A stretch of 63,265 nt of DNA from Candidatus Uhrbacteria bacterium (GTDB taxonomy: Bacteria > Patescibacteriota > Patescibacteriia > UBA9934 > UBA11717), in NCBI GenBank assembly GCA_018701105.1, contig JABIWD010000062.1:1-63265 (forward strand). Direction: 5' to 3'. Made by a program: the position numbers and the translations under genes. Of the stretch, positions 7,286 to 49,060 are shown piece after piece. Below the pieces are notes generated by a model. That model was not told where the DNA came from. It ran no database searches and was given only the letters and a program-made list of their open reading frames with translations. Position 1 is the stretch's first letter; each line of letters opens with the position of its first letter.

Positions 7286-7936
7286 ATGGCAATACTGACA
7301 CGAAACGACATCAAAAAAGAGATCTCGGAGGGAAGATTAGCCTTCTCTCCCCCACTGGATCAATTCCAAATGCAGCCCCACGCAATAGACCTGCGACTTG
7401 GGACAAAGTTTATGATTCCAAAGTCTTGGGAGATAACAGAAAAAGGTCGGGCCGCTATCAAGGTCGCGATCGATGCTGAAAGCTCAGATAGCGAATATAA
7501 CCAGATCGACCTTAAGCCAGGTCAATACTTTGAGATACTGCCAGACGAGTTCGTGATCGCTACGAGTCTAGAGAACATCACGCTCAAATCACCAAACCTC
7601 ATGGCGATCCTGTTCCCAAGAACAAGTACGAATCGCCGAGGACTGAACCTGTCGCTATCGGGAATCATCGACACTGGATACGAAGGAACGCTGATCTTCC
7701 CCATAAAGAACGAAACCAACCAGGTAATCCGCATCTACCCCGGTGAAAGAATCTGCCAGATCATCCTGCAAGAACTCTCTGGAGATCTTACGCCGGAAGA
7801 AGCGAACTTGCATGGAGCGCAGGAGGCAAAGTATACGGAAGGATCGAGCGGATCGTACAAGCTCGACAAACAAGAAGAACGCGACGCCATAATCGCCGGA
7901 AACCTAGATTCACTCAAACAAAGCCACCACATATGA
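7286..7936 (+). CDS. dcd: dCTP deaminase (dUTPase superfamily)
   Basis: N-terminus MAILTRNDIKKEI..G.L...P and the GIIDTGYEGTL motif are typical of Dcd. Heads the dTMP operon. Confidence 0.85.
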   Translation: MAILTRNDIKKEISEGRLAFSPPLDQFQMQPHAIDLRLGTKFMIPKSWEITEKGRAAIKVAIDAESSDSEYNQIDLKPGQYFEILPDEFVIATSLENITLKSPNLMAILFPRTSTNRRGLNLSLSGIIDTGYEGTLIFPIKNETNQVIRIYPGERICQIILQELSGDLTPEEANLHGAQEAKYTEGSSGSYKLDKQEERDAIIAGNLDSLKQSHHI

Positions 7937-8415
7937 ATCGACCAGACTGGGACACATACTTCATGAACATCGCGAAGGTCGTAGCAACTCGTGGAACATG
8001 TGATCGCGCGCACGTGGGTGCCGTAATCGTAAAAGACAATCGCATCATCACAACCGGCTACAACGGATCGCCCCCTGGTATGGAGCATTGCAGCGACATC
8101 GGGCACCAGATGGAAGATGGACATTGCATAAGAACACTGCACGGTGAAGAGAATGCAATCTTGCAAGCGGCGATCATCGGCGGGTCGAGCGCAAAAGGGG
8201 CAACTCTCTACACAACTCACAGCACTTGCTACCAATGTCTCAAAAAAGCGATCAGTGTCGGCGTGACCCGTATCGTTGCCGGAATGCTTTACCGAGATCC
8301 AACAGTTGGTGAGATCTGCAAGAAAGTCGGCATCGAACTCGTACTTCACGGAGCGCCAGCCGATCAACTCCTAGAGAACATGTCGGTCGTGCAGCCTAAC
8401 GAAGTCACGTCGTAG
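7933..8415 (+). CDS. dCMP deaminase (ComEB/cytidylate deaminase family)
   Basis: Zinc motifs H(G)EENAI and TCYQC. WDTYFMNIAKVVATRGTCDRAHVGAVIV. ATGA overlap with the dcd stop. Confidence 0.85.
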   Translation: MNRPDWDTYFMNIAKVVATRGTCDRAHVGAVIVKDNRIITTGYNGSPPGMEHCSDIGHQMEDGHCIRTLHGEENAILQAAIIGGSSAKGATLYTTHSTCYQCLKKAISVGVTRIVAGMLYRDPTVGEICKKVGIELVLHGAPADQLLENMSVVQPNEVTS

Positions 8416-8422
8416 AAAAAAG

Positions 8423-8468
8423 AACTTCCATAAATTGAAATTTGCCCAATTGCCCAGTTGAAATTGCC
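8423..8468. repeat. GGCAAATTTCAATTT-family intergenic repeat, copy A
   Basis: AACTTCCATAAATTGAAATTTGCCCAATTGCCCAGTTGAAATTGCC. Its reverse complement is about 90% identical to 45747..45791 and contains 30531..30564. Confidence 0.75.
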
Positions 8469-8487
8469 AGACATGGCCTAGAATCAT

Positions 8488-9306
8488 ATGAAACAATACC
8501 TTGAGCTTCTTCAAAACATCCTTGAGAACGGCGAGGAGAAAGGCGACCGCACAGGTACCGGTACGATCTCGATATTTGGAACACAGACAAAATACGATCT
8601 TCGCGACGGATTCCCGCTCGTAACCACAAAGAAAGTAAAGTTCGAGGCTATCGTGCGCGAGCTACTGTGGTTCATCCATGGCTGCACAAACATCAACGAC
8701 CAAGACCTCACAGACCACACGCCAATCTGGAACGCGTGGGCCGACGACGACGGTGAGCTTGGTCCTATTTATGGTTACCAGTGGCGAAACTGGGAGAGGT
8801 TCACTTGGAACGAGGAGACCAAGGGCTACGACAAAAGCCACGTCGATCAGTTGATGAACGTGATTGATACTTTGAAAACTAATCCGGAGTCACGTCGCAT
8901 CATCATTAGCGCATGGAACGTTGCGGATGTACCACGAATGAATCTGCCGCCATGTCACGCGTTCATGCAGTTCTATGTTGTAAACGGCCGACTCGACTGC
9001 CAGCTCTACCAACGGTCAGCTGACACAGCGCTTGGGGTTCCCTACAACATCGCGAGCTACGCCACGCTGATGCATATCATTGCAATGGAGTGCGATCTCG
9101 TACCCGGGATCTTCACACATACACTCGGTGACGCTCACATCTACTCAAACCACATCGAAGGTATCAACAAGCAGCTCGCGCGTACTCCACACAAGCTGCC
9201 AGAGCTCAAGATCGTCAAAAAACCAATACTCGACCTTACAATCGACGACTTCATGCTAGAAAACTACACACACGACAAATACATTAAATTCAAAGTTGCA
9301 GTCTAA
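8488..9306 (+). CDS. thyA: thymidylate synthase (ThyA, canonical)
   Basis: [13 protein letters not shown]...[12 protein letters not shown]...[20 protein letters not shown]...GDAHIYSNH. Confidence 0.97.
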
Positions 9307-9827
9307 TGGACAAAAATCTCTACATCATTGCAGCCGTCGATAACAACAATGGCATCGGCAAGGACGGAAAACTTCCGTGGCATTTCAAAACAGAGATGGC
9401 TCACTTTAAAAGTGTGACGACTAAGACAGAGGATCCAAACAAAAAGAACATGGTGATCATGGGTCGGACTACCTGGGAGTCGATCCCAGAGTCTTTCCGA
9501 CCATTACCGGAACGAGTAAACGTCGTGCTCACGAGACGAGCTGAATACGAGGCTGAAGGAGCGTTAGTGGCGAACTCGTTCGAGCAAGCTCTCGAGCTCG
9601 CAGATGACAACGTAGAGAATATATTCGCAATCGGTGGAATGGACATCTACTCAGAAGCCATGGAACGCAAAGACCTTTCCGGTATCTACCTCACTCGTAT
9701 CGACAATGTTTATGATGTGGATACGTACTTCCCTGGCATACCGGGAGATTTTTCAGACATGACGCCTCTGGGTGCCGATGAGGAGGACGGGGTGGATATG
9801 CTGTATATGTTGCTCAAACGAGCATAA
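9306..9827 (+). CDS. folA: dihydrofolate reductase
   Basis: IAAVDNNNGIGKDGKLPW, MGRTTWESIP and GG..IY motifs. Its start overlaps the thyA stop. Confidence 0.9.
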   Translation: MDKNLYIIAAVDNNNGIGKDGKLPWHFKTEMAHFKSVTTKTEDPNKKNMVIMGRTTWESIPESFRPLPERVNVVLTRRAEYEAEGALVANSFEQALELADDNVENIFAIGGMDIYSEAMERKDLSGIYLTRIDNVYDVDTYFPGIPGDFSDMTPLGADEEDGVDMLYMLLKRA

Positions 9828-9864
9828 GCTGTCCACAAGCTCAAAACGAATCTAACTGCTATAA

Positions 9865-10608
9865 TTGGTGCAGAACATGGATACTTCCATAACAACTGGA
9901 GCCTTTTTCGTTATCGATGGAACCGACGGAGCAGGTAAAGCAACACAGACGAGAAAGCTCGTCGAGCGTTTTGTTTCCGAGGGGCGTGCTGTGGAGACCA
10001 TCTCATTTCCCCAGTACGGCGCAAAGAGCGCAGGAATGGTTGAGGAATATCTTGGTGGAAAGTATGGAGAGAACGCGAAAGACGTGAATGCAAAAGCTGC
10101 GAGTATCTTTTACGCGGTGGACCGCTTCGATGCATCGTTCAAAATCAAGCAATGGGTAGCCGAAGGCAAGATCGTGATCTCTGACCGCTTCGTAGGATCG
10201 AACATGGGTCATCAAGGAGGCAAGATCACCGACCAAGACGAACGTAGCGCGTACCTTGCATGGAACGACGACATGGAGCACAACATTCTACGAATCCCTC
10301 GACCAACGCTAAATGTGATCCTGAGTGTGCCAGTAGAAGTCGCAATGAAGCTTGCAAAGCAAGGTGAAAAGGAAAAAACGAAGGTGAAGGGTGACATTCA
10401 CGAGAAAGATCCAGATCATCTACAAGCGTCGATTGAAACCTTCAAAGAGGTTGCCACGAACTTCCCTGGATATCACCTCATAGATTGTTCGCAAGAAGGT
10501 GGACTCAGAACCATAGAAGATATACACGAAGAAATTTGGCGCGCCGTGCAATTGCATGTACCAACGCCTCTGATACTGAATAACAAACATCAACAAGCCA
10601 CCGTATGA
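9865..10608 (+). CDS. tmk: thymidylate kinase
   Basis: P-loop FFVIDGTDGAGKATQ, DRF(V)GSN motif. Last gene of the dTMP operon. The start could instead be ATG 9877. Confidence 0.9.
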   Translation: MVQNMDTSITTGAFFVIDGTDGAGKATQTRKLVERFVSEGRAVETISFPQYGAKSAGMVEEYLGGKYGENAKDVNAKAASIFYAVDRFDASFKIKQWVAEGKIVISDRFVGSNMGHQGGKITDQDERSAYLAWNDDMEHNILRIPRPTLNVILSVPVEVAMKLAKQGEKEKTKVKGDIHEKDPDHLQASIETFKEVATNFPGYHLIDCSQEGGLRTIEDIHEEIWRAVQLHVPTPLILNNKHQQATV

Positions 10609-42830: not shown

Positions 42831-44108
42831 ATGTTCAGCTGTAGCTATTGTGATACGCAGCACCTAAAGTGGTCTGGGCGATGTACCGAATGCGGTAAAT
42901 GGGGGACGCTGGGCGAGGGTGAAAGCGTGAAATCCAAAAAAGCAACAACAGCTGCCAAACCGGCAGCTGTTTTGACGTTCAAAGATATTAAGACATCGGA
43001 GGTCAATAAACGGGTAACTGGGATATCCGAGCTCGATAGAGTGCTCGGAGGCGGACTCGTTCCCGGACAAGTGATCTTGCTTTCTGGTGAGCCAGGCGTT
43101 GGAAAGTCTACCCTACTCGCAAACCTTGCAGGAACGATGGACGGCACCATCATGTACGTCGCGGGTGAAGAGTCCCCCGCTCAACTTAAGATGCGGTTCG
43201 ACAGACTTGGATCTGAAACAAAGAACGTTAAGATCATCACAAAAACGCAGGTCGAGCCTGTCATATCTGCCGTGTCCAAAGAAAAGCCGCATCTCGTGAT
43301 CGTAGACTCAATACAGACAATGACCACGAGCGAGCACGAAGGTTCCGCTGGAGCGCCGACGCATTTGCGAGCCTCCACAGCGCAACTCGTAGCCTTGGCC
43401 AAGACGAGCAACATCCCAGTAATACTCGTCGGCCAGATCACCAAGGACGGCAACGTCGCGGGGCCTAAGATGCTCGAGCACATGGTAGACACTGTTCTAC
43501 ACTTCGGAGGTGACCCAAGACACGCATATCGCCTGCTACGCGCGTCCAAGCACCGTTTCGGAGGGATTGATGAGGTTGGGGTGTTCGAGATGACGGAGAA
43601 AGGCCTGCTCGGTGTAGAATCGCCCTCTTCCCTGTTCATAAACGACGGACCAGCCGCGCCAGGAACTGCAATGGTGTGTACAATAGAAGGGTCACGAGCT
43701 TTCCTCGTGGAGATTCAAGCGCTCGTGAACACGTCGAGCTACGGAACACCTGTTAGACGAGGCTCCGGCTTCAACTCGAACAGAATGCAGATGTTGCTCG
43801 CTATCATCGAGAAACATGGCAAAGTCTCGTTTTCCGGAGAAGACGTTTATGTAAACGTGGTTGGAGGCATGAATGTGAAGGAGCCAGCGGTCGATCTTGC
43901 GGTATGTGCCGCGCTCATAAGCTCGAAACTCGACAAAGCAATACCAAAGGATACAGTTATATTTGGAGAAGTCGGACTCGGAGGTGAAGTGAGATCGGTG
44001 CCTATGCACGATAGACGCGGCAAAGAGTCCAAGAGACTCGGTATGACCAAGACGATGTCGGCGGAGGATATTAAAACGATACGAGATCTAGTAGCTCGAA
44101 TTAAGTAA
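42831..44108 (+). CDS. radA: DNA repair protein RadA
   Basis: N-terminal C4 zinc finger (CSYCDTQHLKWSGRCTECGKW), Walker A GEPGVGKST, KNRFG-type motif (KHRFGG), Lon-like C-terminal domain. Confidence 0.95.
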   Translation: MFSCSYCDTQHLKWSGRCTECGKWGTLGEGESVKSKKATTAAKPAAVLTFKDIKTSEVNKRVTGISELDRVLGGGLVPGQVILLSGEPGVGKSTLLANLAGTMDGTIMYVAGEESPAQLKMRFDRLGSETKNVKIITKTQVEPVISAVSKEKPHLVIVDSIQTMTTSEHEGSAGAPTHLRASTAQLVALAKTSNIPVILVGQITKDGNVAGPKMLEHMVDTVLHFGGDPRHAYRLLRASKHRFGGIDEVGVFEMTEKGLLGVESPSSLFINDGPAAPGTAMVCTIEGSRAFLVEIQALVNTSSYGTPVRRGSGFNSNRMQMLLAIIEKHGKVSFSGEDVYVNVVGGMNVKEPAVDLAVCAALISSKLDKAIPKDTVIFGEVGLGGEVRSVPMHDRRGKESKRLGMTKTMSAEDIKTIRDLVARIK

Positions 44109-44119
44109 CTCGCGCAATT

Positions 44120-44209
44120 GTCATTCTGAGTGGCAACGTAAGAATCTCATCGTTCTAGAGCGCGCTCCTGGCATTATGAGATCCTCACGTCGTTCCTCCT
44201 CAGGATGAC
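44120..44209. repeat. MITE/REP-like element, copy 3 (reverse orientation of copy 1)
   Basis: GTCATTCTGAGTGGCAACGTAAGAATCTCAT (44120-44150), 25-nt spacer, ATGAGATCCTCACGTCGTTCCTCCTCAGGATGAC (44176-44209). The right arm is the exact reverse complement of 6273-6306. Confidence 0.85.
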
Positions 44210-45746
44210 AAAGAACACTGAAACTAATCTTACTATGAATATCTTTCAAGAAAACAAATATCCAGTGATACAAGGAAACGAGAAGGCTTCGACCGGTTTT
44301 TGTACCGTTTGGAATCAGGCCGATGTTGCCATAAAAGCGTCGCCAGAGCTTCTTGAGAAGGCTGCCATTGTAGGAACTCTGTATTCGCGTCAGGGAGTGA
44401 ACGTGGTTTTACGGAACCTCGCACTCAATCCGCATATACGGACCCTCGCACTCTGGGGGCACGGTCCTCTTTCAAATACTCCTTTTGGCACGAGTGGGAC
44501 CGATATCTTGAAAGCTCTCTGGAAAGACGGGGTGAACGACGACTCGACCGTGATCGGAACCTCGTTCCAATTGGAACAAGAGATCGATATTGAGGTCGTT
44601 CGGAAGATGATCACGAAAGTTGAACTTTTCGATCTGTCTGAACACGATTTGTGTACAGCCGTTTCAAAGATCGAGGCGACATCGTCTATGCCATACATGG
44701 ATTCAGTAGACTTCCCTCCTCCTGTCCCGCAAGAAATCTCTACGCTGCCATCAGAGAAGATCGGCTTCACAGTTCACGGCAACACCGTACTCGAAGCTTG
44801 GCGCAAACTCGTTTTTCACATTATGCGATACGGAACTGTTAAAGGTTCGCAGTACGGAATGGAACAAAAGGAATTATTGTCGGCACAATGGGTGATTCAC
44901 AATGAGCCATGCTTGTTCCCGCAAGACATACCCGAGGACTGGCCAGATCAACTCAAGGAAACTATCGGCGCTACGAGTGCAGCTATCGAGCAGTATCACG
45001 ATGTGTTCCTGAGTGCGAAAACAAAGGAGGGCGTGGCGTACACTTACGGCTCACGACTTCGCGACTGGAAGCTCGGCGATCATGTGGTCGACCAGGTCAA
45101 AGATGGACTCATCGCAAACCTAACATCGAGCCCAGACTCACGTCGTGCAATTGCAACTACACTGATCCCAGCGCAAGATGCATCTTCCAAGTCTCCTCCT
45201 TGCCTGATATCTGTACAGTGCATACAGAGCGAAGGTAAGCTAAATATGATAGCTTCTTTCCGTAGTCACGACATTTTCAAGGCAGCGATCCCGAATGCGT
45301 TCGGATTAATCGCCATGCACCAGGAGGTCTCGGACGCCACAGGATTCGAGCGCGGCTCACTCTGCATTCAGTCACATAGCGCGCACGTGTACGAAGGTGA
45401 CTTTGAACATGCAGAGAAGTTGATCAACTGCTCATACCTTGAACGTGATCCTGCGAAGGTATTTGATGCAATGTTCAGTGACAAGCGCGGAAGTATCGTC
45501 ATCCGAGTTGAGGATCGCGAGATCGTAGCCGAGCATCACACCGGTGACGGCGCGTTGATTGCAGAATACCGAGGAAGCTCGGCGCGTGATCTGACGTTAA
45601 AGCTCGGACATCTCAATATAATCTCACAAGTTTCCCATGCTCTCGACATTGGTATGGAGTTACAAAAAGCCGAGCATGCGATGAAGCTCGGACTTACATA
45701 CAATCAAGATAGACCGCTGCAGATTCAAATAAAAGAGGTGGTGTAG
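44205..45746 (+). CDS. thymidylate-synthase-fold protein (archaeal-type ThyA-like core) with extra N- and C-terminal domains
   Basis: The core SRRAIATTLIP...SPPCLISVQC...FRSHDIFKAAIPNAFGL...SHSAHVYE aligns by eye to ThyA motifs RR.I / PPC / (Y)QRS.D / P.N / H.Y. ATG 44205 lies inside the repeat arm, so ATG 44235 is an alternative start. Confidence 0.7.
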   Translation: MTKNTETNLTMNIFQENKYPVIQGNEKASTGFCTVWNQADVAIKASPELLEKAAIVGTLYSRQGVNVVLRNLALNPHIRTLALWGHGPLSNTPFGTSGTDILKALWKDGVNDDSTVIGTSFQLEQEIDIEVVRKMITKVELFDLSEHDLCTAVSKIEATSSMPYMDSVDFPPPVPQEISTLPSEKIGFTVHGNTVLEAWRKLVFHIMRYGTVKGSQYGMEQKELLSAQWVIHNEPCLFPQDIPEDWPDQLKETIGATSAAIEQYHDVFLSAKTKEGVAYTYGSRLRDWKLGDHVVDQVKDGLIANLTSSPDSRRAIATTLIPAQDASSKSPPCLISVQCIQSEGKLNMIASFRSHDIFKAAIPNAFGLIAMHQEVSDATGFERGSLCIQSHSAHVYEGDFEHAEKLINCSYLERDPAKVFDAMFSDKRGSIVIRVEDREIVAEHHTGDGALIAEYRGSSARDLTLKLGHLNIISQVSHALDIGMELQKAEHAMKLGLTYNQDRPLQIQIKEVV

Positions 45747-45791
45747 GGCAATTCAAATGGGCAATTGGGCAAATTTCAATTTATTGAAGTT
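45747..45791. repeat. GGCAAATTTCAATTT-family intergenic repeat, copy C
   Basis: GGCAATTCAAATGGGCAATTGGGCAAATTTCAATTTATTGAAGTT fills almost the entire gap between the convergent 44205..45746 and recG. Confidence 0.75.
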
Positions 45792-45798
45792 TGTCTTT

Positions 45799-47853
45799 TT
45801 ACTCTGGTGAGTTGCGACTGAGGAACCGTTCGAGTTCGTCTGCTAGTTTTTTATTGTGTTCAAGCTCTGGATCGGTGTCTAGAATCTGTTCGGCTACGTC
45901 GCGTGCTTGTGATATCAGGGTGTGATCAGATAAGCTCGCGAACTGGAATTCAGGCAATCCTGACTGTCGGGTTCCAAAGCGATCTCCTGAACCTCTGAGC
46001 TTGAGGTCGATCTCGGCTAACATGAACCCACTATCGTGTTTAACCATGGCTTCGAGCCTCTCTTTTGTTGACCCGCTCATACTCGTTGGATGCAAGAAAC
46101 ACGTTGCCCTGTCTGACGATCTGCGCACTCGACCCCTCAATTGGTGCAATTGAGCGAGTCCAAACCTCTCTGCCCCCTCAATAAAGATAGTAGTAGCATT
46201 TGGAACGTTCACTCCGACCTCGATAACGGTCGTGGAGACCAATACGTCAATCTCTCCATTGCGGAATTTTGTCATTATCTCGTCCTTCTCCTTTGCCTTC
46301 ATCTTGCCATGAAGCTCCTGAATACTAAATGATCTCAGGTGATTTTTACTCAGTTTCATCTTCAGCTCTTTCACAGAGTCTGCCTCAGATCCTTCACTGA
46401 CATCAATAAACGGACAAACTACATACGCCTGAAATCCCTGTTTAAGTTTCTCGCCGATGATCCCGTAAGCTTCTTTGTCCTGAGACGGTCGCAAAAGAAC
46501 TGTCTCGATCTCGCCACGCCCCGGTGGCAGCTCGTCCAGTATCGAAATGTTCATGTCACCATACAACGCCATAGCAAGTGTGCGCGGAATCGGAGTAGCT
46601 GTCATCGACAAGAAATGTGGCACGATATCGCCGCGCCCTGCTACGAGCTTCTTACGCTGTTCAACACCAAAGCGATGTTGCTCGTCTACGATAACAAGAG
46701 CAAGTTTAGGGATCGCAAGCTCGTCTGATAGCAACGCATGAGTGCCAACCACGATTGCGATCCTGCCATCTACGAGTGCTTCGAGTATTAGCTTCCTCGT
46801 TGACGACTCACCATTAATCTCCTGATATGAGCTCGTCAAAAGCGCAATCTGAACCTCGGGTCCGAGCGTTTCCTGAAGTCCGGATGCTTGTTGCACCGCA
46901 AGTATCTCTGTTGGGGCTAGGTATGCGCTCTGAAAGCCCTGGAACGCCGTATTTCCGGCCGCTAACGCTGCAACAACCGTTTTTCCCGACCCCACGTCAC
47001 CTTCGAGCAAACGATGCATAGGAGTAGCATTTTCCATGTCCTGCATAATCGCAAAAGTAGCCTTCCTTTGCGCATCTGTCAGTGCAAATGGCAACTTCGA
47101 TATCGTCTCTTTTACAAACGGTAAATCCATCTCAATCGCATGCGCCTTGGACAGCTCAATATGCTGTCGGGCTCGGACGTGCGCGATCTGGTGAATCAAC
47201 AACTCGGCGAACTTCATCCTACGCATCGCCTTCTCCCAAGACTCCTGCTCCTCCGGAAAATGTAAAGCCGCAATCGAACTCGCAATCGAAGCAAGATCAT
47301 AATCCGCCACAACATTCTCCGGTATCCACTCCTCCATCTCATCAACCGCCTTCATCGCATTCTTAACAGCATTACGCCTCCCCTTCTGCGCCATCTTTCC
47401 TGACACCGAATAGATCGGCACGAGTCTTCCTGTGTGCTGTGTTGGCCCACTGTCCTTAATTGTCTCGAACTGCGGGTTCACGATGCTCAGACCAAACTTG
47501 TCATCGATCTTTCCTGACAGCGAAACTTTGTCCCCCACCTTCAACGTCTTTGCAATATACGGCTGATGAAACCAAACAGCAGTAATCGTCCCCGTAGCAT
47601 CTTCGATAGTGGCCTCGGTCAGAGTCATTTTCTTCCTAGGACTCCGCCGTGATCGGATACTCGTAATCGATCCTTGGACGGTCGTGGTCTCACCTGGCGA
47701 CAAATCGGCGATCCCTCGAATTGTCCGGTAATCCTCGTATCGAAATGGAAATGCCAAAAGAAGGTCGCGAACAGTATCTATTCCCAACTTTCGATAATTG
47801 ACAGACAGCTTGGGTCCAATCCCGGGCAATGCAGTTATCGGATGATTGATCAT
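45799..47853 (-). CDS. recG: ATP-dependent DNA helicase RecG
   Basis: 684 aa. Wedge/OB N-terminus, GDVGSGKT, DEQHRFG, TATPIPRT, QLRGRVGR-type motif (QLRGRVRR). Confidence 0.95.
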   Translation of the reverse strand: MINHPITALPGIGPKLSVNYRKLGIDTVRDLLLAFPFRYEDYRTIRGIADLSPGETTTVQGSITSIRSRRSPRKKMTLTEATIEDATGTITAVWFHQPYIAKTLKVGDKVSLSGKIDDKFGLSIVNPQFETIKDSGPTQHTGRLVPIYSVSGKMAQKGRRNAVKNAMKAVDEMEEWIPENVVADYDLASIASSIAALHFPEEQESWEKAMRRMKFAELLIHQIAHVRARQHIELSKAHAIEMDLPFVKETISKLPFALTDAQRKATFAIMQDMENATPMHRLLEGDVGSGKTVVAALAAGNTAFQGFQSAYLAPTEILAVQQASGLQETLGPEVQIALLTSSYQEINGESSTRKLILEALVDGRIAIVVGTHALLSDELAIPKLALVIVDEQHRFGVEQRKKLVAGRGDIVPHFLSMTATPIPRTLAMALYGDMNISILDELPPGRGEIETVLLRPSQDKEAYGIIGEKLKQGFQAYVVCPFIDVSEGSEADSVKELKMKLSKNHLRSFSIQELHGKMKAKEKDEIMTKFRNGEIDVLVSTTVIEVGVNVPNATTIFIEGAERFGLAQLHQLRGRVRRSSDRATCFLHPTSMSGSTKERLEAMVKHDSGFMLAEIDLKLRGSGDRFGTRQSGLPEFQFASLSDHTLISQARDVAEQILDTDPELEHNKKLADELERFLSRNSPE

Positions 47854-47902: not shown

Positions 47903-47948
47903 CCGGTCAGAAAACACGGCTCACAAACAAAGCCGTGGGAGGAGACAA

Positions 47949-48563
47949 ATGAAAAACCCCATGATCCCGATGCTCGCTGCCCTGCAGCTGGTGCTCGTCG
48001 CCACGGCGGTCACTTATTGCATCCCGGCTACGAGTTCCGATGACGAGGCGACGGAAGATGAGCAGGCCACCGTGACCCTGCAGATCGGCTACCGCACCGA
48101 CGTCGGCGTGGTGATCGACAAGCACGGAACGGTGTGGGACGGCCACATCGAGGTCACTCACTCGCACGACCCGAGCGTGACGCCAGTGGTGACGATCCGC
48201 ACTCCCAGCCTCGGTGGCGATCCCAAAGGGCTCTGCGAGCTCGAGATCGAGAGCACGGACGACAGCGTCGGCCCCACGGACCTCGTGCACACCACGAAGT
48301 ACGTGCCGTTCGGCGTCTGCGGAACCGACCTCTGGATGGCCCACTTCATCATCAGCGGCCGCGGTGATTGGCTCAAGATGCACCTTCACGTCGAAGGAGA
48401 AGAGGACTTCGTGAGCCAGGCCTACCTGGTCCCGGAGACTTCGTTCGCCGTCGGCGCGAACACGGCGACGATCTACAAGGCGTCCACCGGGCTCAACTCG
48501 GAAGCTGACGGCACCTTCGCGTTCCCCGCGTGCGAGCGCCTCATGGACGCAAACGATCTCTGA
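47949..48563 (+). CDS. secreted hypothetical protein (strongly GC3-rich orphan)
   Basis: GGAGGAG SD, signal peptide MKNPMIPMLAALQLVLVATAV, acidic linker SSDDEATEDEQ. Almost exclusively G/C-ending codons. The minus ORF 47907..48611 is its shadow. Confidence 0.65.
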   Translation: MKNPMIPMLAALQLVLVATAVTYCIPATSSDDEATEDEQATVTLQIGYRTDVGVVIDKHGTVWDGHIEVTHSHDPSVTPVVTIRTPSLGGDPKGLCELEIESTDDSVGPTDLVHTTKYVPFGVCGTDLWMAHFIISGRGDWLKMHLHVEGEEDFVSQAYLVPETSFAVGANTATIYKASTGLNSEADGTFAFPACERLMDANDL

Positions 48564-48574
48564 TCGTCTACCAA

Positions 48575-48632
48575 GAACCACCCCCACCAATACCGGTGCG
48601 GATACGGTCACTTGGTGGGCGGTTCTTTTTTT
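48575..48632 (+). terminator. intrinsic terminator
   Basis: Long imperfect hairpin (GAACC...CCCACCAA / TTGGTGGG...GGTTC) followed by TTTTTTT. Confidence 0.65.
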
Positions 48633-48983: not shown

Positions 48984-49060
48984 TGGTGTACCCGGCACGA
49001 TTCGAACGTGCGGCCTTTGGCTCCGCAAGCCAACGCTCTATCCAACTGAGCTACGGGTAC
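48984..49060 (-). tRNA. tRNA-Arg (anticodon GCG)
   Basis: Hand-folded cloverleaf: GTACCCG/CGGGTAC acceptor, GCTC/GAGC D stem, TTGGC/GCCAA anticodon stem, loop TTGCGGA, GCACG/CGTGC T stem with TTCGAAT. Encoded CCA end. Confidence 0.9.

What the first reader, a model, noticed from the sequence alone, without database searches (positions are those of the whole stretch)
44205..45746. Second, archaeal-type thymidylate-synthase-like enzyme with MtrA-like N-terminal and DUF4346-like C-terminal domains
The window already encodes canonical ThyA plus FolA. This 513-aa protein has a divergent TS-fold core: RRAI, SPPCLISVQ with the nucleophile Cys, FRSHD in place of YQRS.D, and SHSAHVYE in place of GD.H.Y. 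As far as I recall, this is the pattern of methanogen/archaeal-type ThyA.

About 190 N-terminal residues flank the core (..IRTLALWGHGPLSNTPFGTSGTDILKALWKDGVND..), reminiscent of MtrA-like pterin/corrinoid-associated domains. About 110 C-terminal residues follow (..SARDLTLKLGHLNIISQVSHALDIGMELQKAEHAM..YNQD), resembling the DUF4346 module found with pterin-binding proteins.

A TS-fold enzyme with extra C1-carrier-related domains sits between radA and recG. It could use a non-folate C1 donor or make a modified pyrimidine (hydroxymethyl- or methyl-dCMP/dUMP) rather than dTMP.
Basis: partly seen in the sequence, partly recalled or inferred. Interest (0 to 1): 0.6.

Follow-up and report, generated by a model that had tools for sequence, protein, structure and literature searches.

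The report
Three-domain thymidylate synthase beside canonical ThyA
This gene encodes an uncharacterised three-part form of thymidylate synthase (the enzyme that makes the DNA base thymine), common in ultra-small bacteria and archaea, that usually occurs without the folate-recycling enzymes the textbook enzyme needs; this genome unusually carries the textbook version as well.

Summary
ORF 44205..45746 (+) encodes a 513-aa protein (probably 503 aa from the ATG at 44235). It has an MtrA-like N-domain, an archaeal-type thymidylate-synthase (TS) core and a C-terminal DUF4346. A canonical dcd-dCMP deaminase-thyA-folA-tmk operon lies at 7286..10608.

The gene belongs to a large family I found uncharacterised in print (221 clusters at 50% identity) in CPR bacteria, DPANN archaea and some Acidobacteria.

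- In 22 of 23 sampled CPR carriers it is the only ThyA-family gene. 19 of those 22 also lack ThyX, 21 lack FolA, and 13 lack SHMT and FolD too.
- Its commonest neighbours are dcd and tmk.
- The dUMP-site residues, including the uracil-specific Asn, are about 97-99% conserved.

It is therefore most likely the lineage's resident dTMP synthase. The canonical thyA-folA appears to be a later arrival, shared only with the closest relative.

The MtrA-like domain lacks MtrA's cobalt-ligand His84/Glu54 in every clade, which weakens a B12-dependent reading. DUF4346 carries an Asp and a His as invariant as the catalytic Cys, so the accessory module probably takes part in the chemistry. Its cofactor and C1 source remain unknown.

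The modified-base idea is not excluded but is disfavoured.

The parts
44205..45746 (+). Long three-domain TS gene. It is 513 aa from the first ATG. The likely true start is the ATG at 44235, giving 503 aa.
   Evidence: ORF listing. The 503-aa P0001 is 100% identical. Relatives start near M11. Sequence upstream of both ATGs was read.
44238..44684 (+). N-terminal MtrA-like Rossmann-type domain (residues ~12-160). It lacks MtrA's His84/Glu54 cobalt-ligand dyad.
   Evidence: PDB 5l8x E 1e-4. NF002126 30.9 bits and PF04208 16.2 bits, both below cut-off. Dyad positions were examined. pLDDT is about 90.
44685..44759 (+). Linker (residues ~161-185), low model confidence
   Evidence: pLDDT below 50 at residues 177-183.
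44760..45452 (+). Archaeal-type thymidylate-synthase core (residues ~186-416)
   Evidence: TIGR03283 150 bits over residues 190-402. PF00303 60 bits. Foldseek finds ThyA structures. hhalign against canonical ThyA gives 98.3% probability.
45201..45203 (+). Codon of the catalytic nucleophile Cys333 (equivalent to E. coli C146)
   Evidence: hhalign mapping. Conserved in 118 of 119 diverse representatives.
45477..45719 (+). C-terminal DUF4346 domain (residues ~425-505). Asp426, Gly429, His478 and Glu485 are near-invariant.
   Evidence: PF14251 54.8 bits. Genome search places it at 45480-45710. Domain model has pLDDT 86. Conservation: D426 119/119, G429 118/119, H478 118/119, E485 107/119 plus 12 Gln. 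No solved relative was found.
45767..45796 (+). Terminator-like hairpin between the convergent long TS and recG genes
   Evidence: Consensus scan only. This is weak evidence.
7286..10608 (+). Canonical dTMP operon: dcd (7286-7936), dCMP deaminase (7933-8415), thyA (8488-9306), folA (9306-9827), tmk (9865-10608). These are the genome's only dcd and tmk.
   Evidence: Pfam. tblastn of the whole genome. ThyA tree.
42831..44108 (+). radA, the upstream neighbour. Its position is syntenic in the same-family genome G045.
   Evidence: Pfam. Synteny.
45799..47853 (-). recG, the convergent downstream neighbour. Its position is syntenic in G045.
   Evidence: Pfam. Synteny.

Best explanation
The gene encodes the lineage's resident thymidylate synthase, of a widespread but biochemically uncharacterised three-domain type: MtrA-fold domain, archaeal-type TS core, DUF4346.

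Shown by sequence and profile comparison:
- The core has the ThyA fold.
- It keeps a complete dUMP site: the Cys333 nucleophile, Arg313/314, Arg353-Ser354-Asp356, the uracil-specific Asn364, and the deoxyribose-binding His394 and Tyr396.

Inferred from distribution and gene context:
- The enzyme makes dTMP from dUMP.
- In most carriers it is the only thymidylate synthase.
- It works without FolA, and often without SHMT and FolD.

Inferred more weakly:
- The MtrA-fold plus DUF4346 module is part of the catalytic cycle. It would bind or regenerate the C1 donor or reductant, so that no free dihydrofolate has to be recycled.
- This rests on DUF4346 carrying an Asp and a His as invariant as the catalytic Cys.
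- The cofactor and the C1 source are unknown.

In this genome and its closest relative, a canonical thyA-folA pair coexists with the long form. It was probably acquired later, and both are maintained.
For: Family size and spread:
- 221 clusters at 50% identity score E <= 1e-30, mostly 460-530 aa.
- Full-length relatives occur in many CPR classes, in DPANN and in Acidobacteriota.

Complementary distribution:
- Of 301 CPR genomes, 23 carry the long form and only G000 also has canonical ThyA. Among the other 278 genomes, 116 have canonical ThyA. Fisher p = 2e-4.
- ThyX is present in 3 of 22 long-form-only genomes and in 11 of 17 genomes with no ThyA-family hit.
- FolA: 1 of 22 (a weak hit) against 18 of 18 canonical-ThyA genomes, p = 2e-10.
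- RibD_C is no general substitute: 4 of 22 against 4 of 18.
- SHMT: 9 of 22 against 18 of 18. FolD: 7 of 22 against 18 of 18. 13 genomes lack all of these.
- Four Acidobacteria genomes of 4.8-6.2 Mb and three DPANN genomes have the long form as their only ThyA- or ThyX-family gene.

Gene context:
- dcd is in 24 and tmk in 23 of about 80 loci, mostly adjacent.
- An FNR-type oxidoreductase lies 3-5 bp downstream in 3 loci and within 400 bp in 2 more.

Residues:
- hhalign maps Y94, R126/R127, C146, R166, S167, D169, N177, H207 and Y209.
- Most are 97-99% conserved in 119 diverse representatives; R313 and R314 are lower at 104 and 95 of 119. DUF4346 D426 is 119/119 and H478 118/119.

Residency in this lineage:
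- radA - long TS - recG is syntenic in G045, which has no canonical ThyA or FolA.
- The canonical ThyA of G000 and G301 lies outside the main same-class clade.
- Against the 85%-identical ortholog, pN is 0.10 and pS 0.78 (saturated) in all three domains, showing purifying selection.
Against: - There is no biochemistry for this family. Even the archaeal-type ThyA it resembles is poorly characterised (PMC9012536, PMC9931769).
- TIGR03283 scores below its equivalog cut-off.
- TS is dispensable in some CPR bacteria: 6 of 17 genomes without a ThyA-family hit also lack ThyX. 'Sole TS candidate' therefore does not prove TS function.
- In G000 and G301 the gene persists under purifying selection beside a complete canonical operon. 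This hints at a non-redundant role.
- In the 13 genomes without SHMT or FolD, no source of a methylene-pterin is recognisable, so the real reaction could differ.
- In Acidobacteria the gene sits in a tight operon with HAD and ParB-CE proteins of unknown role.
- A true DHFR lies 1.7 kb away in one DPANN genome and a RibD_C reductase 1.6 kb away in one CPR genome. Both fit ordinary dihydropterin release.
- Genome counts are not phylogenetically independent (the long-form genomes span 12 families), and the genomes are MAGs.
Confidence: 0.6

Rival explanations
1. Plain ThyA chemistry with passive extra domains. The core uses a methylene-tetrahydropterin and releases a dihydropterin, like any ThyA. 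The MtrA-like and DUF4346 domains are structural, regulatory or oligomerisation modules. Dihydropterin reduction and C1 reloading are done by unrecognised enzymes or by the host.
For: - Asp356 (equivalent to D169, which contacts the pterin), Tyr281 and the whole dUMP site are conserved.
- A DHFR lies 1.7 kb from the gene in G308, and a RibD_C reductase 1.6 kb away in G001.
- 9 of 22 long-form-only genomes do have SHMT and 7 have FolD.
- CPR and DPANN organisms are symbionts that may import reduced folates (established knowledge).
Against: - 21 of 22 long-form-only CPR genomes and 4 of 4 free-living-size Acidobacteria genomes lack FolA.
- 13 genomes also lack SHMT and FolD. One folate would then be consumed per dTMP with no recognisable recycling.
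- DUF4346 D426 and H478 are as invariant as the catalytic Cys. In CPR, DUF4346 occurs only inside this protein. Both argue for a direct role.
Confidence: 0.2
2. Corrinoid-dependent methyl transfer. A cobamide held by the MtrA-fold domain, possibly together with DUF4346, donates a pre-formed methyl group to Cys-activated dUMP. No dihydrofolate is formed.
For: - The N-domain is a genuine MtrA homolog.
- A precedent exists for MtrA-type corrinoid proteins feeding a biosynthetic methyltransferase: MesA (PMC7857596).
- The family occurs independently of FolA, SHMT and FolD.
- An FNR-like reductase neighbours the gene in 5 loci and could reactivate Co(II).
- The invariant His478 and Glu485 on one DUF4346 helix could in principle supply an axial ligand in trans. 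This is speculation.
Against: - MtrA's cobalt ligand His84 and its partner Glu54 (PMC4915002) are replaced in all CPR, DPANN and Acidobacteria members. No conserved His or Glu occupies either position in 119 representatives.
- The MtrA models score below their cut-offs.
- No methyl source for the corrinoid is evident.
- An earlier scan note reports no enrichment of B12-pathway genes. I did not verify this.
Confidence: 0.1
3. Modified-pyrimidine synthase. In this genome at least, the long enzyme makes something other than dTMP, for example 5-hydroxymethyl-dUMP or another C5-substituted nucleotide, while canonical ThyA makes dTMP.
For: - It coexists with a complete canonical operon in G000 and G301 and is under purifying selection.
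- The TS superfamily includes hydroxymethylases. MilA is a strong Foldseek hit.
- HAD and ParB-CE helper genes accompany it in the Acidobacterial operons.
- Residues do not distinguish a methylase from a dUMP hydroxymethylase.
Against: - The family distribution is complementary to ThyA and ThyX.
- dcd and tmk are the commonest neighbours.
- The gene is orthologous and syntenic with that of G045, where it is the only TS candidate.
- Asn364 excludes cytosine specificity.
- G000 has no HAD, ParB-CE or FNR helper homologs.
Confidence: 0.1

Closest known systems
Methanogen/archaeal-type thymidylate synthase (NCBIfam TIGR03283, the M. jannaschii MJ0757 type)
   Same: It is the best-scoring family for the core (150 bits over nearly the full 201-position model). 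The core is similarly stripped down, and the host genomes likewise lack FolA.
   Different: - The score is below the equivalog cut-off (174.55).
- The archaeal enzyme is about 200 aa and standalone.
- Here the core sits between an MtrA-fold domain and DUF4346, and the hosts are CPR bacteria, DPANN archaea and Acidobacteria rather than methanogens.
Canonical ThyA (EC 2.1.1.45; PF00303), including the window's own copy at 8488..9306
   Same: Same fold. The Cys nucleophile, the Arg pair, the RSxD motif, the uracil-specific Asn and the His/Tyr deoxyribose contacts are shared (hhalign probability 98.3%).
   Different: - About 25% identity over only 138 aligned columns.
- The folate-contact positions differ: L172 becomes K/R, H147 becomes L/I, D205 becomes S.
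- It is not accompanied by FolA, and there are extra domains at both ends.
MtrA, the corrinoid subunit of methyl-H4MPT:coenzyme M methyltransferase (PDB 5L8X/5LAA; PMC4915002)
   Same: The N-domain is homologous (about 35% identity over the central ~95 residues) and has the Rossmann-like fold.
   Different: - The cobalt ligand His84 and its partner Glu54 are absent.
- The GAIPF(Y/F)xEN meander motif is not kept.
- There is no membrane anchor.
- It is fused to a TS rather than forming part of an Mtr complex.
NF002128-type MtrA-like + DUF4346 proteins, and TIGR00284 dihydropteroate-synthase-like + DUF4346 proteins
   Same: They share the DUF4346 module. NF002128 also shares the MtrA-like module directly upstream of DUF4346. 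All are linked to pterin-type C1 enzymes.
   Different: They have no TS core. In the present family the TS core is inserted between the two modules. Their functions are also uncharacterised, as far as I could find.
ThyX (flavin-dependent thymidylate synthase)
   Same: The phyletic behaviour is the same: it replaces ThyA and occurs without FolA.
   Different: The fold is unrelated and no flavin-binding ThyX motif is present. The resemblance is one of distribution only, not of homology.
Bifunctional DHFR-TS of protozoa
   Same: A TS fused on one chain to a cofactor-handling domain. These structures appear among the Foldseek hits through their TS half.
   Different: The fused partner here is not a DHFR, and no NADPH-site signature was identified.

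Membership tests
ThyA superfamily (PF00303) | Profile match above the curated cut-off, and the TS fold | tested here: met
   60.4 bits against a 24.3 cut-off. Foldseek to ThyA structures, E 6e-14. hhalign probability 98.3%.
ThyA superfamily (PF00303) | Catalytic Cys nucleophile and dUMP-binding residues (R126'/R127', R166, S167, D169, N177, H207, Y209; E. coli numbering) | tested here: met
   C333, R313/R314, R353, S354, D356, N364, H394 and Y396. Most are conserved in 115-118 of 119 representatives; R313 and R314 in 104 and 95.
Methanogen-type thymidylate synthase equivalog (TIGR03283) | Score at or above the equivalog cut-off (174.55 bits) | tested here: not met
   150.1 bits. DPANN, Acidobacteria and CPR standalone relatives score 78-127 bits. 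It is the closest family, but this protein is not an equivalog.
Bacterial ThyA equivalogs (TIGR03284, NF002497 and others) | Score at or above the equivalog cut-off | tested here: not met
   47.6 bits against 108.35, and 50 against 327. The window's canonical ThyA scores 351 and 375.
Thymidylate synthase in function (EC 2.1.1.45 activity) | Converts dUMP to dTMP | not testable with these tools
   Indirect support only: distribution complementary to ThyA and ThyX, and dcd/tmk neighbours.
MtrA corrinoid protein (PF04208 / TIGR01111) | Profile match above the curated cut-off | tested here: not met
   PF04208 16.2 bits against 25. TIGR01111 17.7 against 249. NF002126 30.9 against 161.
MtrA corrinoid protein (PF04208 / TIGR01111) | Cobalt axial ligand His84 hydrogen-bonded to Glu54 (PMC4915002) | tested here: not met
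   - The His84 column holds N/T/S/A/K.
- The Glu54 column holds R/K/P.
- Neither position has a conserved His or Glu in CPR, DPANN or Acidobacteria members.
MtrA corrinoid protein (PF04208 / TIGR01111) | Binds a cobamide | not testable with these tools
   His-off binding cannot be excluded by sequence.
DUF4346 (PF14251) | Profile match above the curated cut-off | tested here: met
   54.8 bits against 29.6. There is one copy per long-form genome, always inside this protein.
dCMP/CMP hydroxymethylases (T4 gp42 type, MilA) | Asp in place of the uracil-specific Asn177 | tested here: not met
   Asn364 is conserved in 117 of 119 representatives. That cytosine-specific enzymes carry Asp at this position is established knowledge, not something I tested.
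dUMP hydroxymethylase | The product is 5-hydroxymethyl-dUMP rather than dTMP | not testable with these tools
   I know of no reliable sequence discriminator. Distribution and context disfavour it.

The most novel reading that the evidence does not exclude
The MtrA-fold plus DUF4346 module, with its invariant Asp426 and His478, holds a tightly bound C1 or redox cofactor: a His-off corrinoid, a pterin or something else. This would make the fused enzyme a third mechanistic class of thymidylate synthase, one that needs none of FolA, SHMT or FolD. It would serve as the sole dTMP source in many CPR bacteria, DPANN archaea and some free-living Acidobacteria.
Probability: 0.3. Interest if true: 0.9.

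Novelty: new variant of a known kind. Interest (0 to 1): 0.6.

Why it matters
Only two ways of making thymidylate are established: ThyA, which depends on FolA, and flavin-dependent ThyX.

A ThyA-fold enzyme with two conserved accessory domains replaces both across three distant groups. It often occurs in genomes with no recognisable folate-cycle enzymes. Two consequences are possible.
- It could reveal a new cofactor logic for an essential step of DNA synthesis.
- It could change how the nucleotide and folate 'auxotrophies' of CPR and DPANN symbionts are read from genomes. Genomes scored as 'thyA present, folA missing' may not be THF auxotrophs at all.

This window is a useful test case. The same organism carries both forms, so the two enzymes can be compared from a single genetic background.

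Tried and rejected
- **Word-index homolog searches.** Searches with the N-domain alone and the TS core alone returned only members or fragments of the same family. No other architectures and no named archaeal ThyA came back.
- **DUF4346 structure.** There is no PDB sequence relative. A confident domain model (pLDDT 86) has no Foldseek PDB match at E <= 0.001.
- **RibD_C as a hidden DHFR substitute.** Rejected: 4 of 22 against 4 of 18.
- **Split MtrA-like or DUF4346 partner genes.** I looked beside the short TS-like genes I had in hand (G181, G079, G016, G128, G297) and found none. P0212 (204 aa) is an internal-deletion variant, not a split partner. The split form described in earlier scan notes was therefore not examined here.
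- **Helper genes in G000.** ParB-CE, HAD and FNR-like homologs are absent.
- **Literature.** 'DUF4346' returns no papers. No paper found describes this architecture.
Full report
**1. Observation**

- Pfam assigns a thymidylate-synthase core (PF00303, residues 273-408, 60.4 bits) and a C-terminal DUF4346 (PF14251, residues 426-502, 54.8 bits). The MtrA model matches only weakly (16.2 bits, below its cut-off).
- NCBIfam's best model is the methanogen-type TS TIGR03283 (150.1 bits, residues 190-402). That is below the 174.55 equivalog cut-off. Bacterial ThyA models score 50 bits or less.
- The N-domain matches the solved MtrA structures 5L8X and 5LAA (E about 1e-4).
- An AlphaFold model (pLDDT 81) has the ThyA fold over the central ~245 residues by Foldseek.
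- The window also holds a canonical operon: dcd, dCMP deaminase, thyA, folA and tmk at 7286..10608. The gene's neighbours are radA and recG.
- The likely true start is the ATG at 44235, giving 503 aa. The gene call on record in the protein collection is 503 aa (P0001), and relatives begin near M11. The sequence upstream of both ATGs was read.

The genome is 0.89 Mb, 96% complete and belongs to a CPR bacterium. Its closest named relative is a Candidatus Uhrbacteria MAG.

**2. The family**

- More than 280 proteins of about 500 aa share the full architecture.
- An exhaustive search of 1.84 billion representatives finds 221 clusters at 50% identity with E <= 1e-30. Most are 460-530 aa, with some larger variants of 613-837 aa.
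- Named loci place the family in many CPR classes, in DPANN archaea (Woesearchaeota and Nanoarchaeota, about 30% identity over the full length) and in Acidobacteriota (Bryobacteraceae and Terriglobia, about 27%).
- All of these, and some standalone CPR TS genes of 267-317 aa, have TIGR03283 as best hit, always below its cut-off.
- No paper I could find describes the architecture. 'DUF4346' occurs in none of the papers held.
- The literature describes archaeal-type ThyA itself as biochemically poorly known (PMC9012536, PMC9931769).

**3. Phyletic pattern**

I searched 301 CPR genomes for PF00303 and then compared three genome sets.

| Feature | Long-form-only genomes (n = 22) | Canonical-ThyA genomes (n = 18) |
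|---|---|---|
| ThyX | 3 | 0 |
| FolA (PF00186) | 1 (a weak hit) | 18 |
| RibD_C (PF01872) | 4 | 4 |
| SHMT (PF00464) | 9 | 18 |
| FolD (PF02882) | 7 | 18 |

- 23 genomes carry the long form, and in 22 of them it is the only ThyA-family hit. 116 of the other 278 genomes have canonical ThyA (Fisher p = 2e-4).
- Among 17 genomes with no ThyA-family hit, 11 have ThyX.
- The single weak FolA hit is actually a RibD_C protein.
- Thirteen near-complete genomes have the long TS and none of ThyA, ThyX, FolA, SHMT or FolD.
- In CPR, DUF4346 occurs exactly once per long-form genome, always inside this protein, and nowhere else.
- Outside CPR, three DPANN genomes and four Acidobacteria genomes of 4.8-6.2 Mb have the long form as their only ThyA- or ThyX-family gene. 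FolA is present in only one, a DPANN genome where it lies 1.7 kb from the long TS.
- In a 41-genome Bryobacteraceae sample, 34 genomes have no ThyA-family hit, 1 has canonical ThyA, 3 carry the long form and 3 have weak shorter TS-like frames of 339-386 aa.

Caveats: the genomes are MAGs, and the counts are not phylogenetically independent (the long-form CPR genomes span 12 families). Also, 6 of the 17 genomes without a ThyA-family hit lack ThyX too, so a TS is not strictly essential in CPR.

**4. Gene context**

I clustered the ORFs flanking the gene in 80 loci.

- The commonest neighbours are dCTP deaminase (24 loci) and thymidylate kinase (23 loci), usually adjacent.
- An FNR-type NAD-binding oxidoreductase follows 3-5 bp downstream in 3 CPR loci and within 400 bp in 2 more.
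- Standalone archaeal-type TS genes in CPR also sit beside tmk or dCMP deaminase.
- In Acidobacteria the gene heads a tightly overlapping operon with a HAD hydrolase, a ParB-CE protein and a 158-aa unknown protein.
- G000 has no homologs of these helper proteins. Its only dcd and tmk are in the canonical operon.

**5. Residues**

A profile-profile alignment with canonical ThyA (probability 98.3%) gives this mapping.

| This protein | E. coli ThyA equivalent |
|---|---|
| Y281 | Y94 |
| R313 / R314 | R126' / R127' |
| C333 | C146 |
| R353, S354, D356 | R166, S167, D169 |
| N364 | N177 |
| H394, Y396 | H207, Y209 |
| L334, K359, S392 | H147, L172, D205 (not conserved) |

- Across 119 full-length representatives that are at most 50% identical to one another, most dUMP-site residues are conserved in 115-118 sequences. 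R313 and R314 are lower, at 104 and 95.
- Asn at the N177 position indicates uracil rather than cytosine. This rests on established knowledge of the dCMP hydroxymethylases.

In the MtrA-like domain, the features that define MtrA's cobalamin site (PMC4915002) are His84, Glu54 and the GAIPF(Y/F)xEN meander.

- The columns equivalent to His84 hold N/T/S/A/K.
- The columns equivalent to Glu54 hold R/K/P.
- No conserved His or Glu occupies either position in any clade.

DUF4346 is the opposite case.

- D426 (119/119), G429 (118), H478 (118) and E485 (107, plus 12 Gln) are as conserved as the catalytic Cys.
- The domain has no solved relative by sequence or by fold.
- In NCBIfam NF002128 the MtrA-like region is followed directly by DUF4346. 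The TS core therefore appears to have been inserted into a pre-existing two-domain module.

**6. Why this genome has two TS genes**

- A same-family genome, G045, has the same radA - long TS - recG arrangement with the same flanks (long TS 59% identical). It has no canonical ThyA or FolA.
- The closest relative, G301 (long TS 85% identical), has both TS types.
- Four other Uhrbacteria genomes have only the long form.
- In a tree of canonical ThyAs, the G000/G301 pair sits on its own long branch, outside the well-supported clade of eight same-class genomes.
- Between G000 and the G301 ortholog, synonymous sites are saturated (pS 0.78) while pN is about 0.10 in each of the three domains.

The long form is thus the vertically inherited resident. 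The canonical thyA-folA was probably acquired by the G000/G301 ancestor, and the long form has stayed under purifying selection since.

**7. Interpretation**

The best-supported reading (0.6) is that this is a genuine dUMP-to-dTMP synthase of an uncharacterised three-domain type that does not depend on FolA. The accessory module probably takes part in C1 or reductant handling.

- Shown: the fold, the substrate-site residues, the distribution and the gene context.
- Inferred: the product, FolA-independence as an enzyme property, and any role for the accessory domains.

The rivals are:
- plain ThyA chemistry with passive extra domains (0.2);
- corrinoid-dependent methyl transfer (0.1), weakened by the missing His/Glu dyad;
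- a modified-pyrimidine synthase (0.1), disfavoured by distribution and context but kept alive by the coexistence with canonical ThyA here.

**8. Earlier scan notes**

These are AI notes and were treated as leads only.

- They report the same fused family.
- They report a split version, with an MtrA-like+DUF4346 gene between dcd and a short TS.
- They report the ParB/HAD helper operon.
- They repeatedly propose a B12-dependent mechanism.

My dyad test agrees with note e1-1029972 (a His-less MtrA-like domain) and argues against the B12 reading for the fused form. One later check states that half of the fused relatives stand beside an ordinary synthase. In my samples only 2 of 35 carriers do. 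I did not examine the split form.

Noticed in passing
L075:7956-11248 (Bryobacteraceae); the same arrangement occurs in L072, L074, L076-L079 and L082: In Acidobacteria the long TS heads a tightly overlapping operon with a HAD hydrolase, a ParB-CE (PF24392) protein and a 158-aa protein with no Pfam match. The four Acidobacteria genomes tested have no other ThyA, ThyX or FolA.
   Followed up: partly
L022, L032, L035, L036, L037 (downstream of the long TS; 3-5 bp in L032, L035 and L036): An FNR-type NAD-binding oxidoreductase of about 221 aa follows the long TS in five CPR loci. It is a candidate reductase partner.
   Followed up: partly
L085:4779-8064 (genome G016): dCMP deaminase is followed, after a single stop codon, by a standalone 317-aa archaeal-type TS-like gene. 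A long three-domain TS lies divergently next to it, so one locus holds two TS-fold genes.
   Followed up: partly
L089 (G297:C2:16000-26000): A tandem pair of short TS-like ORFs (258 and 236 aa) lies near a dCMP deaminase. The pair occurs twice on one contig, about 42.6 kb apart, with identical scores. This may be a duplicated or mobile block.
   Followed up: no
L088:2668-6075 (genome G128): A 209-aa TS-like ORF lies beside GTP cyclohydrolase II-like, PyrF-like and guanylate-kinase-like genes, in a genome that also has canonical ThyA. This nucleotide-related context is different and unexplained.
   Followed up: no
L063 / G308:C1:35029-37586 and L084:5873-9587 (genome G001): A true DHFR (DPANN) and a RibD_C-family reductase (CPR) lie 1.6-1.7 kb from the long TS. 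They are exceptions to the general absence of dihydrofolate reductases.
   Followed up: partly
P0212 (204 aa): A variant in which the MtrA-like domain is joined directly to the helical half of DUF4346, with no TS core. It may be an internal deletion or an assembly artefact.
   Followed up: partly
P0174, P0189, P0194, P0235, P0239, P0259, P0281: Larger family members of 613-837 aa, several with two or more matched stretches. This suggests extra or duplicated domains.
   Followed up: no
window 47907-48611: Two long ORFs overlap on opposite strands (204 aa on +, 234 aa on -). The + strand ORF has no Pfam match. They lie just upstream of tRNA-Arg (48984-49060).
   Followed up: no
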